DNA of 64,000 nucleotides from Candidatus Terrybacteria bacterium RIFCSPHIGHO2_01_FULL_43_35 (GCA_001822815.1 MHSR01000013.1:85093-149092); one strand, 5' to 3'; shown: positions 36,632 through 48,511, counted from the first letter of the stretch. The notes: generated by a model not told the origin, from the letters alone. Translations and numbers: made by a program.

Positions 36632-37399
36632 TTACGGAAGAACATCCGGTGGCAGATAGAAATTATACGTGTTTTCAAGGTTCTTGATTTCCGCAATGAT
36701 ACCCTCGGATTCCACGGCTATTTTTGAGTGTTCACCAGAATTCCATAAATTCAGCACATCTTCTGAATTTGAACCGGCGATATTTTTTAAGAACAAAATA
36801 TATTGCTTAATAAGCGCGAGGCTGTGTTCGTGAACTGCGGCGGCCTGCGAAGGAGGCGTTATGGCGCGGAGGGCTTGCAGTTGTCTTTCGTATTCGGAGA
36901 TAACTTCATTTAACGCCTCTTTTTGGCCCTTGGCCGCAAGGGCCAACGCTATTTTTATGGTGTCGGGATTATTGCCGCCAAAATCTATGGCCGAAGAGGC
37001 AACGAAGTATTCATAAAGTGAGCGAGCCGGTTCAGTTTTAGGTATCGGACTTTGAGTTTGCGGTTCCTGGTCGCCGGTTTGGGCCGTACCGTTCAGTATA
37101 GCGTCATCACTTTTGTTTAGGGCGTCCAGAAGGCCAGCCATAAAAGGTCTATATGTTCCCGGTATCGTGTTTTGTGGGTGCGTAGCGTTTTGGTTTGGCG
37201 CGTCAAACACCGATGTCAAAAAACTTGAAATAGACAAACCACCTTTCGGCTTCATTATAACACCGCTAGGATTTTTTGCTGATGTGGATAAGTGGCTTAT
37301 GGGAAAACTATTTCCAAAAGCAAAAAATCCCGCAAGCAACGGGATAGTTATAACCAGCAGGAGCTTGAGAAACCGATATAAAAAGACGCCTTTTAGCAT
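36632..37399 (-). CDS. Secreted/anchored protein, paralog 1 of a three-gene tandem family
   Basis: N-terminal TM. The C-domain (ALALAAKGQKEALNEVISEYERQLQAL...) resembles the C-domains of the proteins at 37644 and 38792. Confidence 0.5.
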   Translation of the reverse strand: MLKGVFLYRFLKLLLVITIPLLAGFFAFGNSFPISHLSTSAKNPSGVIMKPKGGLSISSFLTSVFDAPNQNATHPQNTIPGTYRPFMAGLLDALNKSDDAILNGTAQTGDQEPQTQSPIPKTEPARSLYEYFVASSAIDFGGNNPDTIKIALALAAKGQKEALNEVISEYERQLQALRAITPPSQAAAVHEHSLALIKQYILFLKNIAGSNSEDVLNLWNSGEHSKIAVESEGIIAEIKNLENTYNFYLPPDVLP

Positions 37400-46058: not shown

Positions 46059-46421
46059 CTATTTACAGTTCCCGCAAAGTTCCGCCTCCGGAGAAGCATT
46101 AAGACGCTTTATCGGAATGTCCTTTTTGCAATTCAAACATTTCCCGTACGCGTTCTTTTGGATGCGCGTTAGGGCACGTCTTATCGCGCGCAATCTTTCT
46201 TCTAAAATGGTTTCGGCTGAAAGCCTCGTACCGTATTCTTCAACGGCCGAGACTTGCGCGTCTTCATCCTGCCCGTCGCCAAAGTTCGGAAAACGCGAGG
46301 TAAACTCTCCCGAGCCACCCTTGTTTTTTGTGGCAAAAGAAGCCAGCGTTTCGGAAATGCGCCTTTCTTCAGAAAGCAGTTTATTCTTGAAGTTTTCTAT
46401 ATCCTGTTTAGCTAGAGGCAT
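46059..46421 (-). CDS. dksA: DksA/TraR-family C4 zinc-finger protein
   Basis: Coiled-coil N-terminus. The four-Cys finger CLNCKKDI...CGNCK is at the C-terminus. Confidence 0.7.
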   Translation of the reverse strand: MPLAKQDIENFKNKLLSEERRISETLASFATKNKGGSGEFTSRFPNFGDGQDEDAQVSAVEEYGTRLSAETILEERLRAIRRALTRIQKNAYGKCLNCKKDIPIKRLNASPEAELCGNCK

Positions 46422-46439
46422 ACCAGGTAGTAGAAGTTC

Positions 46440-46960
46440 GACTATAATATGTTGCCGAATTTCTAGTTAATGATTAGTGTTATAACGAATTAATGGTTAG
46501 AATTAAGTATCACGAAATCGATTGTTCGCCTTCGGCGAACGGTCGAACTTTCACTACCTGGCATAAGAAGCAAAACACTTTGAATATAGTTATTATTACC
46601 ATACAAAAAAAGCTCCGCAAGGGAGCCGAAGGTACTGAAGATATTGAAGTACCGAAGGTGCTGAGCTCATCGAAGCATTACCGAAAAGTTTCTTAGGGGC
46701 GCTAGACGCCCCAGTTTAATTTGGGCGGAGCGCCCCTAATGGAGTTGGCCTTTTCCTCGATTATGGAGGAAATTTCCGCGATTATAGCGGGGTTTGGCTC
46801 GAATGAGCCGAAGGCCTATGTGCAGGCAAGTCCGCAGACTTTTCTGCGAGTGTTTTTAGCCCTTCGAAAAATCTCAGGGTCAAGACCTGGCCGATTGCCG
46901 GGTTTTAAGGTCCTAAACTGCGGAGCAATCCGCTAGGCGTTAACACCTATTATACCACGC
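46440..46960 (+). ncRNA. Candidate structured non-coding RNA of unknown identity
   Basis: About 570 bp with no credible ORF. Contains a UUCG-tetraloop hairpin (GTTCGCcttcgGCGAAC, about 46534), a GNRA-type hairpin (GCTCCgcaaGGGAGC, about 46611), GGGGCGctaGACGCCCC and GGGCGgagCGCCC. It contains AAGTCCG and CGGAGCAA segments reminiscent of RNase P RNA P4/P15 regions, but the order does not fit the RNase P consensus. Confidence 0.3.
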
Positions 46961-47014
46961 TATGAACCCGCGCCAAATGGCTAGATGTGGATAATTGAAA
47001 GCGCGTAATCCTGG

Positions 47015-48511
47015 TTATTTGCCAAGTAGATCTAACAGAGCGAACATTGATATTCGTGATGTTCCAAAAAGAAACATGGTGTCGCTGAACGCATAGTCTA
47101 TGGTGAGATTAGGATCGGGCAAATTTAAATATCTTATAGGTATGCTGCGCGAGTCGTTTTGTAAGAATGGCGCTGATTCTTGCTGTGCGGGTGAGCCCAT
47201 AGCCGATAAAAGAGGCCTAGTATCTTGATACATTGTTGATTCCCAATTTTGCGCGGCATGCAACGCATCGTTTTTATTTTTAATCGGGATAGCAAAGCCC
47301 AATCTTTTACCTTCGCTTTGGGTATAAGTGAATATAGTAAATTTGTTCTCATCCAAGGCACTTTCTAAAGTATCTGGTATGGTTACGCCCAAAGCGGAAC
47401 TATATTCCGAAAAGGTTAAATAACGCTTTTCGGTGTCGTTTTCCACCTTAACCAGCAGTCTGGTGAAAATTCCTTGCGTGCCTGGAGCCTGTAGCGTATT
47501 AAGGATAGTGCTGTTGGCTTCGCTTAATTGTCTTATGGTTAAAGTAATATCCGAAGATACCGGTATAATGCTTTCCGGGATTGGTGGGTTGGGTATTTCT
47601 TGTTGCGGGGGTGGGGTGACGACGATTGAACCCGTCTTTTGGGATCCGTTTGAAACAAAGATAAAATATAAGGCAACTGCGGCAACGGCAATAAAAACAA
47701 TAAACCCAACGATTATGATTATTTTTGCCGGAATTTTGCGGCCGGTTTTTAGCGCAGATTCAGACTGATTTGCTGGTTCGGCCATCTGCATCGCCACTTC
47801 TTGTCCCAAGCTCAATATATCGTGCTCCTTTACTGGATGCGGCGCCGGTATAGGCCTTGTTCTTGGCAGTACTTCTTTTCGTGTCGGCCCACTCATTTCC
47901 GGTGGAATGGCACTCGTTAAAATAGAAGGCGTTTCTTTATAATCTTTTTTTATGGTTTTTTCTTCAACGGTGCCGGCATCTTTTTTAATTTCCGCAAGTT
48001 CGGTGAGCTTTTCTGTTTCGGGTAAGCTTGTCTGCATCCTTCCAGACGATTCAAGTCCAAGTACGTCAAACTCTGGGATATTTTTCAATTCCGATATTGA
48101 AATTGGTGGCGACGTTTCTTTTTTGAATGGCACTGCTGGCTCTTCTTGCGGTTTGGATTTCTCGGCCAAAGCTCCTTGTAAGTCTGCCCGCGGCTCGGTT
48201 GTTTGGCCTAAACTTAAACTAAGATCAGCCAATGAATGAGCCTTTTCACCTTCAAGTCCCGGGCCCTGTTCCTCTTTGGTTGTTTGGGGTTTATTAAACT
48301 CCAGAGACTCAATTCTTTCCCCTGGTTTTGAAACGCCTTCTTCCCTTTGCCAAATATTAGCCGGTTCTTGAGGAGCTACCTTGGGCGCATAAAATTGTCG
48401 CGGTTTATATTCTCCGCGTTGGATCATAGCAATATCTTTCTGCATTGTGCGTATAGGATCTTCTTCTCTTTCTTCAACCGTATTTTTCGCTGGAACGGCG
48501 GCAGGGTTCAT
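47015..48511 (-). CDS. Hypothetical single-pass membrane protein with a long disordered N-terminal region
   Basis: Central TM IIIIVGFIVFIAVAAVALYFIFV. No recognizable domain. Confidence 0.5.
   Translation of the reverse strand: MNPAAVPAKNTVEEREEDPIRTMQKDIAMIQRGEYKPRQFYAPKVAPQEPANIWQREEGVSKPGERIESLEFNKPQTTKEEQGPGLEGEKAHSLADLSLSLGQTTEPRADLQGALAEKSKPQEEPAVPFKKETSPPISISELKNIPEFDVLGLESSGRMQTSLPETEKLTELAEIKKDAGTVEEKTIKKDYKETPSILTSAIPPEMSGPTRKEVLPRTRPIPAPHPVKEHDILSLGQEVAMQMAEPANQSESALKTGRKIPAKIIIIVGFIVFIAVAAVALYFIFVSNGSQKTGSIVVTPPPQQEIPNPPIPESIIPVSSDITLTIRQLSEANSTILNTLQAPGTQGIFTRLLVKVENDTEKRYLTFSEYSSALGVTIPDTLESALDENKFTIFTYTQSEGKRLGFAIPIKNKNDALHAAQNWESTMYQDTRPLLSAMGSPAQQESAPFLQNDSRSIPIRYLNLPDPNLTIDYAFSDTMFLFGTSRISMFALLDLLGK

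What the first reader, a model, noticed from the sequence alone, without database searches (positions are those of the whole stretch)
46440..46960. ORF-free 570-bp gap with UUCG and GNRA hairpins: candidate structured ncRNA
Between dksA and a membrane-protein gene the + strand shows several stable stem-loops typical of structural RNAs: GTTCGC-CTTCGG-GCGAAC, GCTCC-GCAA-GGGAGC, GGGGCG-cta-GACGCCCC and GGGCG-gag-CGCCC. Short matches to RNase P RNA conserved segments (AAGTCCG; CGGAGCAA) occur, but not in canonical order. The ORFs called here (67 and 71 aa) have no support. It could be a divergent RNase P RNA, an SRP or 6S-like RNA, or a novel CPR ncRNA.
Basis: partly seen in the sequence, partly recalled or inferred. 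Interest (0 to 1): 0.55.

Follow-up and report, generated by a model that had tools for sequence, protein, structure and literature searches.

The report
New structured RNA gene beside dksA
The gap holds a real, conserved, highly folded non-coding RNA gene of about 340 bases that matches no known RNA family, but it lies on the opposite strand to the one proposed, is not RNase P, SRP, 6S or tmRNA, and is seen only in one small group of groundwater Terrybacteria.

Summary
The gap (window 46422-47014, 593 bp) is real and has no supported ORF. It holds two separate things.

(1) A conserved structured RNA gene on the MINUS strand, about 46942 to 46605 (about 340 nt; 264-275 nt in relatives). It has a conserved TGnTATAAT promoter and an invariant TTATCCACA box 30-31 nt upstream of the -10. 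Its hairpins are supported by compensatory and G.U changes. Two hairpins carry invariant YAUAAUC loops. It ends in a hairpin plus U7.

(2) An unrelated ~140-bp inverted-repeat insertion (46423-46561) directly upstream of the dksA start codon.

Rfam (4227 families, E up to 10) and ARAGORN find nothing in the RNA here or in its homologues, so RNase P, SRP, 6S and tmRNA are rejected. The RNA lies upstream of, and co-oriented with, a clade-specific dksA-like gene in every lineage where that region could be read.

Best reading, at moderate confidence: a stand-alone RNA forming a module with dksA. Main rival: a cis-acting leader that attenuates dksA transcription. Function is unproven and there are no expression data.

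The parts
46986..46994 (-). Invariant TTATCCACA box (identical to the DnaA-box 9-mer), 30-31 nt upstream of the RNA's -10 hexamer. Candidate regulator site.
   Evidence: Invariant in window, L012, L016, L026, L013, L054 and L028, while the flanking sequence diverges. Only 2 perfect copies occur in 64 kb.
46949..46976 (-). Promoter of the RNA: -35 TTGGCG (46971-46976), 16-nt spacer, extended -10 TGG-TATAAT (46949-46957).
   Evidence: Scan hit with 10 of 12 matches and TG. The same promoter is found in L013 (TTGAAT-16-TATAAT, TG) and L028 (TTGGCG-16-TATAAT, TG). TGnTATAAT is invariant in all lineages.
46603..46948 (-). Structured RNA gene, modelled from the first base after the -10. The predicted start is near 46941-46944 and the predicted 3' end is in the U tract 46605-46611.
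   Evidence: nhmmer finds one copy per locus, E 1e-64 to 1e-84 in relatives. Fold z = -5.8. 96.2% of cells are paired and 6 pairs changed on both sides. No Rfam match.
46935..46948 (-). 5' hairpin H1 (AGGUG-UUAA-CGCCU).
   Evidence: A small hairpin can be drawn at this position in each lineage with a different sequence, e.g. AGGU-AUU-ACCU in L028. RNAfold itself calls it only in the window and L028.
46920..46933 (-). Hairpin A (GCGGA-UUGC-UCCGC). The overlapping segment GCUCCGCAG (46918-46926) is complementary to the terminator loop plus 3' arm.
   Evidence: Invariant stem. Alternative partners are listed. The terminator state and the 5'-3' helix state are nearly isoenergetic.
46885..46903 (-). 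Hairpin C (ACC-C-GGC / AAUCG loop / GCC-A-GGU). Its loop and 3' arm can instead pair with GCGGAUUGC (alternative helix P2).
   Evidence: Pair 55-65 is GC/AU/GU, with A.C in the L012 group. P2 pair 22-58 is UA/UG/CG.
46854..46884 (-). Window-specific extra hairpin (insertion 1).
   Evidence: Absent from all relatives.
46833..46848 (-). Hairpin D (CGCAGA-AAAG-UCUGCG), with a variable loop.
   Evidence: Pairs 109-118, 110-117 and 111-116 change AU/GU, GC/GU and GC/AU/GU. The G.U pairs would be A.C on the plus strand.
46814..46827 (-). Hairpin E (GCCUG ... YAGGC), with a variable loop of 4-7 nt.
   Evidence: Folds in every lineage. G.U variants occur in the window and in L028.
46796..46809 (-). 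Window-specific extra hairpin (insertion 2, GGCUC-AUUC-GAGCC).
   Evidence: Absent from relatives.
46776..46790 (-). Hairpin F: CCGC-[UAUAAUC]-GCGG, with an invariant heptaloop YAUAAUC.
   Evidence: The base pair at the foot of the stem is C-G, U-A, A-U or G-C in four lineages, read from the sequences. The loop is invariant.
46752..46772 (-). Hairpin G: UUUCCUC-[CAUAAUC]-GAGGAAA, with the same heptaloop, 7-8 nt after F.
   Evidence: Pair 187-201 is UA/CG/GC and pair 189-199 is UA/UG.
46693..46739 (-). 3' domain H: an 11-bp outer helix (UUAGGGGCGCU/AGCGCCCCUAA) plus a 5-bp inner helix (CGCCC/GGGCG).
   Evidence: Pairs 224-278 (UA/GC) and 226-276 (GC/AU) changed on both sides; pair 225-277 is AU/GU.
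46627..46692 (-). Linker. It is short and A/U-rich in relatives; the window carries an extra ~47 nt with hairpins.
46605..46626 (-). Terminator-like hairpin GCUCC-CUUGC-GGAGC followed by U7.
   Evidence: Terminator scan hit on the minus strand. CUCCCUUGCGGAG plus the U tract is invariant. The hairpin alone is -8.8 kcal/mol here but only -3.7 to -4.3 in relatives.
46589..46620 (-). Possible dksA promoter overlapping the terminator: TTGCGG (46615-46620), 16-17 nt, TAATAA/TAATAT/TACTAT.
   Evidence: Read from the aligned sequences. The consensus scan does not call it, because the -35 matches only 3 of 6. Inference only.
46423..46561 (.). It is inserted directly before the dksA ATG.
   Evidence: Inverted repeat I1. 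Present in the window and in L012/L053/L055. The site is empty in L016, L026, L013, L054 and L056. No other copy in the window or in fetched loci.
46059..46421 (-). dksA-like gene (120 aa, C4 zinc finger), the constant downstream partner of the RNA.
   Evidence: PF01258, 29.3 bits against a cutoff of 24.9. It lies downstream of the RNA in all lineages.

Best explanation
The gap encodes a previously undescribed, clade-restricted structured RNA on the minus strand. It is about 340 nt here and has a core of about 265 nt in relatives.

Shown:
- It has its own conserved extended -10 promoter, preceded at a fixed distance by an invariant TTATCCACA box.
- It is a string of hairpins whose stems change by compensatory and wobble substitutions while some loops are invariant.
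- The window copy has three extra peripheral hairpins.
- It ends in an invariant hairpin plus U7, 22-53 nt before the dksA start wherever no mobile element intervenes.
- In every lineage where the upstream region could be read, it sits upstream of and co-oriented with the same clade-specific dksA-like gene.

Inferred:
- It is released as a stand-alone RNA.
- The 5' segment GCUCCGCAG pairs with UUGCGGAGC at the 3' end to form a 9-bp closing helix that abuts the U tract.
- The twin hairpins F and G present two identical YAUAAUC loops at fixed spacing. These would be the recognition surface for a partner, most simply a dimeric protein.
- dksA is started from a weak promoter (TTGCGG-N16/17-TAATAW) that overlaps the RNA's terminator, so the two genes are coupled.

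The inverted-repeat element at 46423-46561 is an unrelated insertion in the dksA 5' region.
For: - Conservation: the DNA alignment is nearly invariant in blocks across relatives with 70-72% ComM identity and 58-70% DksA identity.
- Family size: 7 distinct full-length sequences in 4 deep lineages, plus partial copies.
- Not coding: no conserved ORF, frame-breaking indels, no Pfam match.
- Strand: promoter hits with TG in the window, L013 and L028. The minus-strand terminator is called in the window. There are 19 G.U cells against 12 A.C cells, and half of the A.C cells come from one misaligned column. L054 and L058 add further G.U changes.
- Structure: 96.2% of cells paired against 37-45% when partners are slid. 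6 pairs changed on both sides (14 of 500 shuffles reach this). 0 of 500 shuffles reach the covariation score.
- Stability: fold z-scores are -5.8, -6.0 and -4.2.
- Stand-alone reading: the linker before the terminator is unconserved, A/U-rich and tolerates a 47-nt insertion. The 5' segment is complementary to the terminator's loop and 3' arm, not to its 5' arm as in classical antiterminators (plus general knowledge of attenuators). A -35/-10-like pair with constant 16-17 nt spacing overlaps the terminator in all lineages.
- Linkage: in L028 the upstream neighbour differs, but the RNA still precedes dksA.
Against: - There are no expression data, so the 5' and 3' ends are predictions.
- There are only four deep lineages, so covariation is modest. 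The tool's own caveat is that related sequences can beat the shuffles without any structure.
- In all relatives the local terminator hairpin is only 4 bp (-3.7 to -4.3 kcal/mol) and is not called by the scan, so termination may be leaky.
- The putative dksA promoter has a poor -35 and was not detected by the scan.
- Strict adjacency to dksA fits a cis-acting leader equally well.
- The partner of the YAUAAUC loops is unknown.
- Two mutually exclusive helices (hairpin C and P2) each have one covarying pair. That is what a switch would show.
Confidence: 0.5

Rival explanations
1. The RNA is a cis-acting leader (a riboswitch-like or protein-dependent attenuator) of dksA. Transcription starts at the conserved promoter, and the ~265-nt structured leader decides whether RNA polymerase stops at the U7 tract or reads into dksA. 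One concrete version: the local 4-bp hairpin is too weak to terminate, so efficient termination needs the 9-bp long-range helix between GCUCCGCAG and UUGCGGAGC. The availability of the 5' segment (hairpin A versus helix P2 with the C loop) would then be set by an effector.
For: - The RNA is always upstream of and co-oriented with dksA, even where the upstream neighbour has changed.
- Where nothing is inserted, only 22-53 nt separate the U tract from the ATG.
- The local terminator is weak in relatives.
- The terminator state and the 5'-3' helix state are nearly isoenergetic in all lineages, ddG -1.0 to +3.4 kcal/mol.
- Two mutually exclusive helices each carry a covarying pair.
- Insertions between the U tract and the ATG are tolerated. 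That fits transcriptional control, not translational control.
Against: - No known riboswitch or leader family matches.
- The linker between the structured body and the terminator is unconserved and tolerates a 47-nt insertion, which is unusual for an expression platform.
- The complementary 5' segment targets the terminator's 3' arm and lies about 230 nt upstream, which is kinetically unfavourable for a classical antiterminator.
- A promoter-like -35/-10 pair for dksA overlaps the terminator.
- The distribution is very narrow for a metabolite sensor.
Confidence: 0.3
2. It is a divergent housekeeping RNA (RNase P RNA, SRP RNA, 6S RNA or tmRNA).
For: - The size (265-346 nt) is in the range of RNase P RNA, tmRNA and large SRP RNA.
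- The variable peripheral hairpins resemble expansion segments.
- Short words AAGTCCG and CGGAGCAA occur on the plus strand.
Against: - No Rfam family reaches even E = 10 in the 751-nt search of the gap, or in L028, L025 and L054.
- ARAGORN finds no tmRNA.
- The RNase-P-like words are on the non-transcribed strand. AAGUC is the variable loop of hairpin D (AAAG, AAAC, UAAU, CAUG in different lineages).
- There is no P4, CR-I or CR-V sequence on either strand.
- The fold is multi-branched, not the 6S rod.
- Housekeeping RNAs are universal, whereas this one is found only with a clade-specific dksA. The next-closest ComM relatives have neither the gap nor dksA at this place.
Confidence: 0.03
3. 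The conservation is at the DNA level (operator or binding-site arrays, or a small protein) rather than in an RNA.
For: - F and G are 21-bp-spaced direct repeats on DNA (family D2).
- A DnaA-box-like 9-mer is conserved.
- Gene callers placed 65-67-aa ORFs here.
Against: - Stem positions change to different Watson-Crick pairs rather than keeping a consensus half-site, and G.U wobbles are tolerated on one strand only.
- The ORFs are not conserved and are broken by indels.
- Conservation is bracketed exactly by a promoter and a hairpin plus U7.
Confidence: 0.04

Closest known systems
Orphan large structured bacterial ncRNAs found by comparative genomics (e.g. raiA motif RNA, OLE, ROOL, GOLLD)
   Same: - More than 250 nt and multi-hairpin.
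- Conserved loops with covarying stems.
- Tolerates peripheral hairpin insertions.
- Conserved gene neighbourhood.
- No known biochemical function.
   Different: - No sequence or structure match to any of them in Rfam 15.
- Much narrower distribution: one Terrybacteria-related clade.
- Different neighbour, a dksA-like gene.
Transcription-attenuating leaders and riboswitches with terminator expression platforms (T-box and similar)
   Same: - Lies in front of, and co-oriented with, one gene family.
- Ends in a hairpin plus U tract 22-53 nt before the start codon.
- Contains mutually exclusive helices.
   Different: - No T-box sequence or specifier architecture, and no Rfam hit.
- Unconserved linker before the terminator.
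- The competing strand pairs with the terminator's 3' arm and lies at the far 5' end.
- No leader is known for dksA (literature search).
6S RNA / Ms1 (RNA polymerase-binding RNAs)
   Same: - Stable, promoter- and terminator-bounded RNA with 5'-3' pairing.
- The loops read YAUAAU followed by CG, which resembles a -10 hexamer plus a G+C-rich discriminator.
- The neighbour is an RNA-polymerase-binding factor.
   Different: - No rod with a central bubble.
- No Rfam 6S hit.
- The -10-like sequences are in 7-nt hairpin loops, not in an open bubble.
- The resemblance is by eye only.
rRNA intervening sequences (IVS) / MITE-like inverted-repeat insertions (for the separate element at 46423-46561)
   Same: - Long terminal inverted repeats forming a stem of about 20 bp.
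- Present or absent between close relatives at one site.
- In L028 the same site holds an IR-flanked gene of the 23S rRNA IVS protein family.
   Different: - Not in an rRNA gene.
- Only one copy in the 64-kb window and in fetched loci.
- No clear target-site duplication.

Membership tests
Bacterial RNase P RNA (Rfam RNaseP_bact_a/b and relatives) | Match to the family covariance model | tested here: not met
   No hit at gathering score. No hit at E up to 10 in window 46350-47100, or in L028, L025 and L054.
Bacterial RNase P RNA (Rfam RNaseP_bact_a/b and relatives) | P4 helix built from the conserved CR-I (GGAAAGUCCGGGC-like) and CR-V (ACAGAAYCCGGCUUA-like) strands | tested here: not met
   By inspection of alignments A4 and A6. 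The only AAGUC is on the plus strand and corresponds to the variable loop of hairpin D. No CR-V-like sequence occurs on either strand.
tmRNA | tRNA-like domain plus tag reading frame | tested here: not met
   ARAGORN finds only 4 tRNAs elsewhere in the window. No Rfam hit.
SRP RNA (small or large bacterial) | Match to the covariance model | tested here: not met
   No Rfam hit at E up to 10.
SRP RNA (small or large bacterial) | Helix 8 motif with a GNAR tetraloop | tested here: not met
   By eye only, from the loops printed: no conserved GNAR-capped helix. The loops that could qualify vary between lineages.
6S RNA | Match to the covariance model; a single rod with a large central bubble | tested here: not met
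   No Rfam hit. MFE and centroid folds are multi-branched in three lineages.
Stand-alone bacterial small RNA gene | Own promoter | tested here: met
   Extended -10 promoter hits in the window, L013 and L028. TGnTATAAT is invariant in all lineages. This is a consensus match only, not measured.
Stand-alone bacterial small RNA gene | Efficient intrinsic terminator at the 3' end | tested here: inconclusive
   Called in the window (6 pairs, U7). In relatives the local stem is 4 bp, -3.7 to -4.3 kcal/mol, and is not called. A 9-bp long-range helix could substitute.
Stand-alone bacterial small RNA gene | A discrete transcript of the predicted size | not testable with these tools
   No transcriptome data are available.
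Riboswitch / transcription-attenuating leader | Located in the 5' region of the regulated gene, on the same strand, in all members | tested here: met
   Upstream of dksA in all lineages where the region is readable.
Riboswitch / transcription-attenuating leader | Mutually exclusive terminator and antiterminator helices supported by covariation | tested here: inconclusive
   Alternative pairings exist and are nearly isoenergetic. However, the strands involved are invariant. Only the hairpin C versus P2 alternative has one covarying pair each.
Riboswitch / transcription-attenuating leader | Effector binding that changes read-through | not testable with these tools
   Needs in-line probing or in vitro transcription.
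MITE / IVS-like inverted-repeat element (46423-46561 only) | Terminal inverted repeats | tested here: met
   23-nt arms, 87% complementary.
MITE / IVS-like inverted-repeat element (46423-46561 only) | Presence/absence polymorphism at an otherwise conserved site | tested here: met
   L012 and L016 differ by a clean insertion of about 125-130 bp. The site is empty in five lineages.
MITE / IVS-like inverted-repeat element (46423-46561 only) | Multiple copies in the genome | tested here: not met
   Only the two arms of this one copy match in the 64-kb window and in fetched loci. The rest of the genome was not available.
MITE / IVS-like inverted-repeat element (46423-46561 only) | Target-site duplication | tested here: inconclusive
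   TATG flanks both ends in the window, but this is not clean in L012.

The most novel reading that the evidence does not exclude
The RNA is an RNA-polymerase/sigma decoy that works with the neighbouring DksA-like secondary-channel factor. Its two invariant hairpin loops (YAUAAU followed by CGCG or CGAG) would present single-stranded copies of a -10 hexamer plus a G+C-rich discriminator, the promoter class that DksA destabilises. That would let the RNA titrate or reprogramme the holoenzyme by a route architecturally unlike 6S RNA. A DnaA-box-like site would control its synthesis.
Probability: 0.05. Interest if true: 0.85.

Novelty: new member of a known kind. Interest (0 to 1): 0.5.

Why it matters
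Structured RNAs longer than 250 nt with conserved architecture and no known function are rare, and several have turned out to be ribozymes, large riboswitches or RNP scaffolds. This one comes from the Candidate Phyla Radiation, where almost nothing is known about non-coding RNA or about transcription control. It is locked to a DksA-like RNA-polymerase-binding factor.

If it is a leader, it would be the first RNA-based control of a dksA-family gene. It might also be an example of a terminator built from a long-range helix. If it is a trans-acting RNA, its twin invariant loops give a direct handle for pull-downs.

Its value is limited by the narrow distribution (one clade, about 4-6 lineages) and by the lack of any expression or biochemical data.

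Tried and rejected
- Ten loci carrying the identical DksA were 100% identical in the gap and useless for covariation.
- The metagenome pattern scan (ATAATCGCG-N4-14-CTCYATAATYGRG) gave 26 loci. Only 6 contain the RNA by nhmmer, all from the same clade. The rest are chance matches, mostly from gut metagenomes. The viral scan gave 0.
- L027 (DksA 63% identical) has only 138 nt upstream and no detectable homology to the RNA, so it is uninformative.
- The nearest outgroup ComM loci, L059 and L060, lack dksA and the gap.
- Replication origin was rejected: only a single box, no cluster and no skew switch.
- Small protein was rejected.
- T-box was rejected: the GGUACC-like word in L013 is not conserved and lies at the wrong end.
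- Helix J (GGCC x GGCC, enclosing F and G) against hairpin E could not be resolved. E is preferred because its stem is kept while its loop varies.
- Four literature searches found nothing on such an RNA.

Full report
**Observation**

The gap lies between the dksA-like gene (46059-46421, minus strand) and a 498-aa gene with no Pfam family (47015-48511, minus strand). It is 593 bp long. The gap folds much better than shuffled sequence on both strands: z = -7.2 (+) and -9.0 (-). The 67-aa and 71-aa ORFs have no Pfam match and are not conserved in relatives.

**Known families**

- cmscan against all 4227 Rfam families finds only four tRNAs elsewhere in the window.
- At E up to 10 it finds only noise in 46350-47100.
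- It finds nothing over the homologous RNAs in L028, L025 and L054.
- ARAGORN finds no tmRNA.

RNase P, SRP, 6S and tmRNA are therefore not supported.

**Relatives**

The window comes from a Candidatus Terrybacteria genome (the source's name for P0121; assembly GCA_001822905.1). Ten contigs with the identical DksA are identical in the gap. More distant relatives were reached in three ways:

- ComM homologues at 70-72% identity.
- DksA homologues at 58-70% identity.
- One DNA-pattern scan of metagenomes.

The gene order S15 - NYN - PNPase - unknown protein - gap - dksA - comM is kept.

The gap aligns with long invariant blocks. nhmmer finds one copy per locus, E = 1e-64 to 1e-84. There are 7 distinct full-length sequences in four deep lineages: the window; L012/L016/L026; L013/L054; and L028. 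Partial copies add L056 and L058. The next-closest ComM relatives have neither dksA nor the gap at this place. Viral contigs have none.

**Strand and boundaries**

Conservation starts at an invariant TTATCCACA box (window 46986-46994). It continues 30-31 nt downstream with TGnTATAAT (46949-57). It ends with CUCCCUUGCGGAG plus U7 (46605-46626).

The promoter scan calls this promoter, with TG, in the window, L013 and L028. The terminator scan calls the minus-strand hairpin plus T-run in the window.

In the proposed helices there are 19 G.U cells, which are valid only on the minus strand. There are 12 A.C cells, and six of them come from one misaligned column. Independent G.U substitutions occur in hairpins D, E, G, H and in the terminator.

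**Structure**

On alignment A6, a model of eight helices (A, C, D, F, G, H-outer, H-inner, T) gives the following:

- 96.2% of cells are paired, against 37-45% when the 3' partners are slid by 1-3 columns.
- Six pairs changed on both sides; 14 of 500 shuffles reach this.
- 0 of 500 shuffles reach the covariation score.

The clearest cases:

- The foot of hairpin F is C-G, U-A, A-U or G-C in four lineages (sequences).
- Hairpin G pair 187-201 is UA/CG/GC.
- Helix H pairs 224-278 and 226-276 changed on both sides.
- Hairpin D has a variable loop and three pairs that vary.

Hairpins F and G carry the same invariant heptaloop YAUAAUC, 7-8 nt apart. The window copy has three extra hairpins (46854-84, 46796-809, and within 46627-92). 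These sit at peripheral positions, in the manner of expansion segments. The core RNAs fold with z = -6.0 (L013), -4.2 (L028) and -5.8 (window).

With four deep lineages this is supportive, not conclusive.

**Alternative pairings**

The 5' segment around hairpin A can pair in four ways:

- With itself: GCGGA/UCCGC.
- With the loop of hairpin C (helix P2, 8 bp plus a G.G mismatch; pair 22-58 is UA/UG/CG).
- With CUGCGGA after hairpin D (7 bp).
- As GCUCCGCAG with UUGCGGAGC, the terminator loop plus 3' arm (9 bp, ending at the U tract).

Forcing either the local terminator or the 5'-3' helix gives nearly equal energies in all lineages, ddG -1.0 to +3.4 kcal/mol.

The local terminator hairpin is -8.8 kcal/mol in the window. 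It is only 4 bp and -3.7 to -4.3 kcal/mol in all relatives, and the scan does not call it there.

**Relation to dksA**

Where nothing is inserted, the U tract is 22-53 nt from the dksA ATG. A -35/-10-like pair, TTGCGG-N16/17-TAATAW, overlaps the terminator in every lineage. This is my own reading of the sequences; the scan does not call it.

In L028 the upstream neighbour is a DUF5615 gene instead of the 498-aa gene, yet the RNA still precedes dksA. The RNA and the dksA-like gene therefore form a conserved module.

**Second feature**

Window 46423-46561 is a ~140-bp element with 20-23-nt terminal inverted repeats.

- It is present at the same site in L012, L053 and L055.
- The site is empty in L016, which is otherwise almost identical to L012, and in L026, L013, L054 and L056.
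- The loop of the inner hairpin differs between the two carriers.
- No other copy exists in the window or in fetched loci.
- L028 carries, at the same place, a 23S-rRNA-IVS-protein gene flanked by 23-nt inverted repeats.

This is a separate insertion, IVS- or MITE-like, at an apparent hot spot in the dksA 5' region. It is not part of the conserved RNA.

**Interpretation**

Shown: a conserved, non-coding, structured element on the minus strand. It is bracketed by promoter-like and terminator-like signals, matches no described family, and is linked to dksA.

Favoured reading (about 0.5): a stand-alone RNA. The reasons are:

- The unconserved, insertion-tolerant linker before the terminator.
- The 5' segment targeting the terminator's 3' arm rather than its 5' arm, which makes a closing helix more natural than an antiterminator.
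- The plausible separate dksA promoter.

On this reading the twin invariant loops on F and G are the likely recognition surface for an unknown partner.

Main rival (about 0.3): a transcription-attenuating leader of dksA, possibly using the long-range helix as the real terminator. It is favoured by the strict adjacency, the weak local hairpin, the near-isoenergetic alternative states, and covarying pairs in two mutually exclusive helices.

Housekeeping RNAs and DNA-level or protein-coding explanations are each below 0.05.

The most novel reading not excluded is an RNA polymerase/sigma decoy: the loops read like a -10 hexamer plus a G+C-rich discriminator, next to a DksA-like factor. This rests on resemblance only (about 0.05).

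**Novelty**

This is a new RNA family within the familiar class of orphan structured bacterial RNAs. It is restricted to one CPR clade. Interest is moderate (0.5): a real and fairly large new structured RNA in a poorly understood phylum, but with narrow distribution and no functional data.

Noticed in passing
window 46423-46561; L012 5497-5626; L028 1189-1786: The short stretch between the RNA's U tract and the dksA start codon has taken insertions flanked by inverted repeats in three lineages. The window and L012 carry a ~140-bp ORF-less element. L028 carries a 23S-rRNA-IVS-protein (PF05635) gene flanked by 23-nt inverted repeats. Five other lineages have an empty site. It looks like an insertion hot spot for IVS-like elements outside rRNA.
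   Followed up: partly
window 46986-46994 (-): A perfect DnaA-box 9-mer, TTATCCACA, is invariant at a fixed 30-31 nt upstream of the RNA's -10 hexamer in all lineages. It is one of only two perfect copies in the window (the other is at 37283-37291). There is no cluster and no GC-skew switch, so it looks like a regulator site rather than an origin.
   Followed up: partly
window 46776-46790 and 46752-46772 (-): The two invariant hairpin loops read YAUAAU followed by CGCG or CGAG. That is a -10 hexamer plus a G+C-rich discriminator written in RNA, next to a DksA-like gene. On DNA they are direct repeats spaced 21 bp apart.
   Followed up: no
L016-L022, ComM gene (e.g. L016 3594-4349 and 4401-5126): In the L016 lineage the ComM/YifB gene is called as two ORFs (251 + 241 aa) in several independent assemblies. 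This suggests a real frameshift or split gene.
   Followed up: no
L027 1-138: A more distant DksA homologue (63% identity) also has a hairpin plus T6 (GACCCCCTTGTCGGTTTTTT) about 30 nt upstream of its start, with a similar CCCTTG core. The contig is too short to tell whether a diverged version of the RNA precedes it.
   Followed up: partly
window 47015-48511 (-): The 498-aa upstream neighbour has a single hydrophobic helix, matches no Pfam family, and is conserved in size only within the clade (498-512 aa; split or shortened in L012).
   Followed up: no
L029-L050 (human-gut metagenome contigs): About 20 gut-metagenome contigs match the 22-base twin-loop pattern with an identical 33-nt span but have no similarity to the RNA by nhmmer. 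This is probably one recurrent, unrelated sequence in a gut organism.
   Followed up: no
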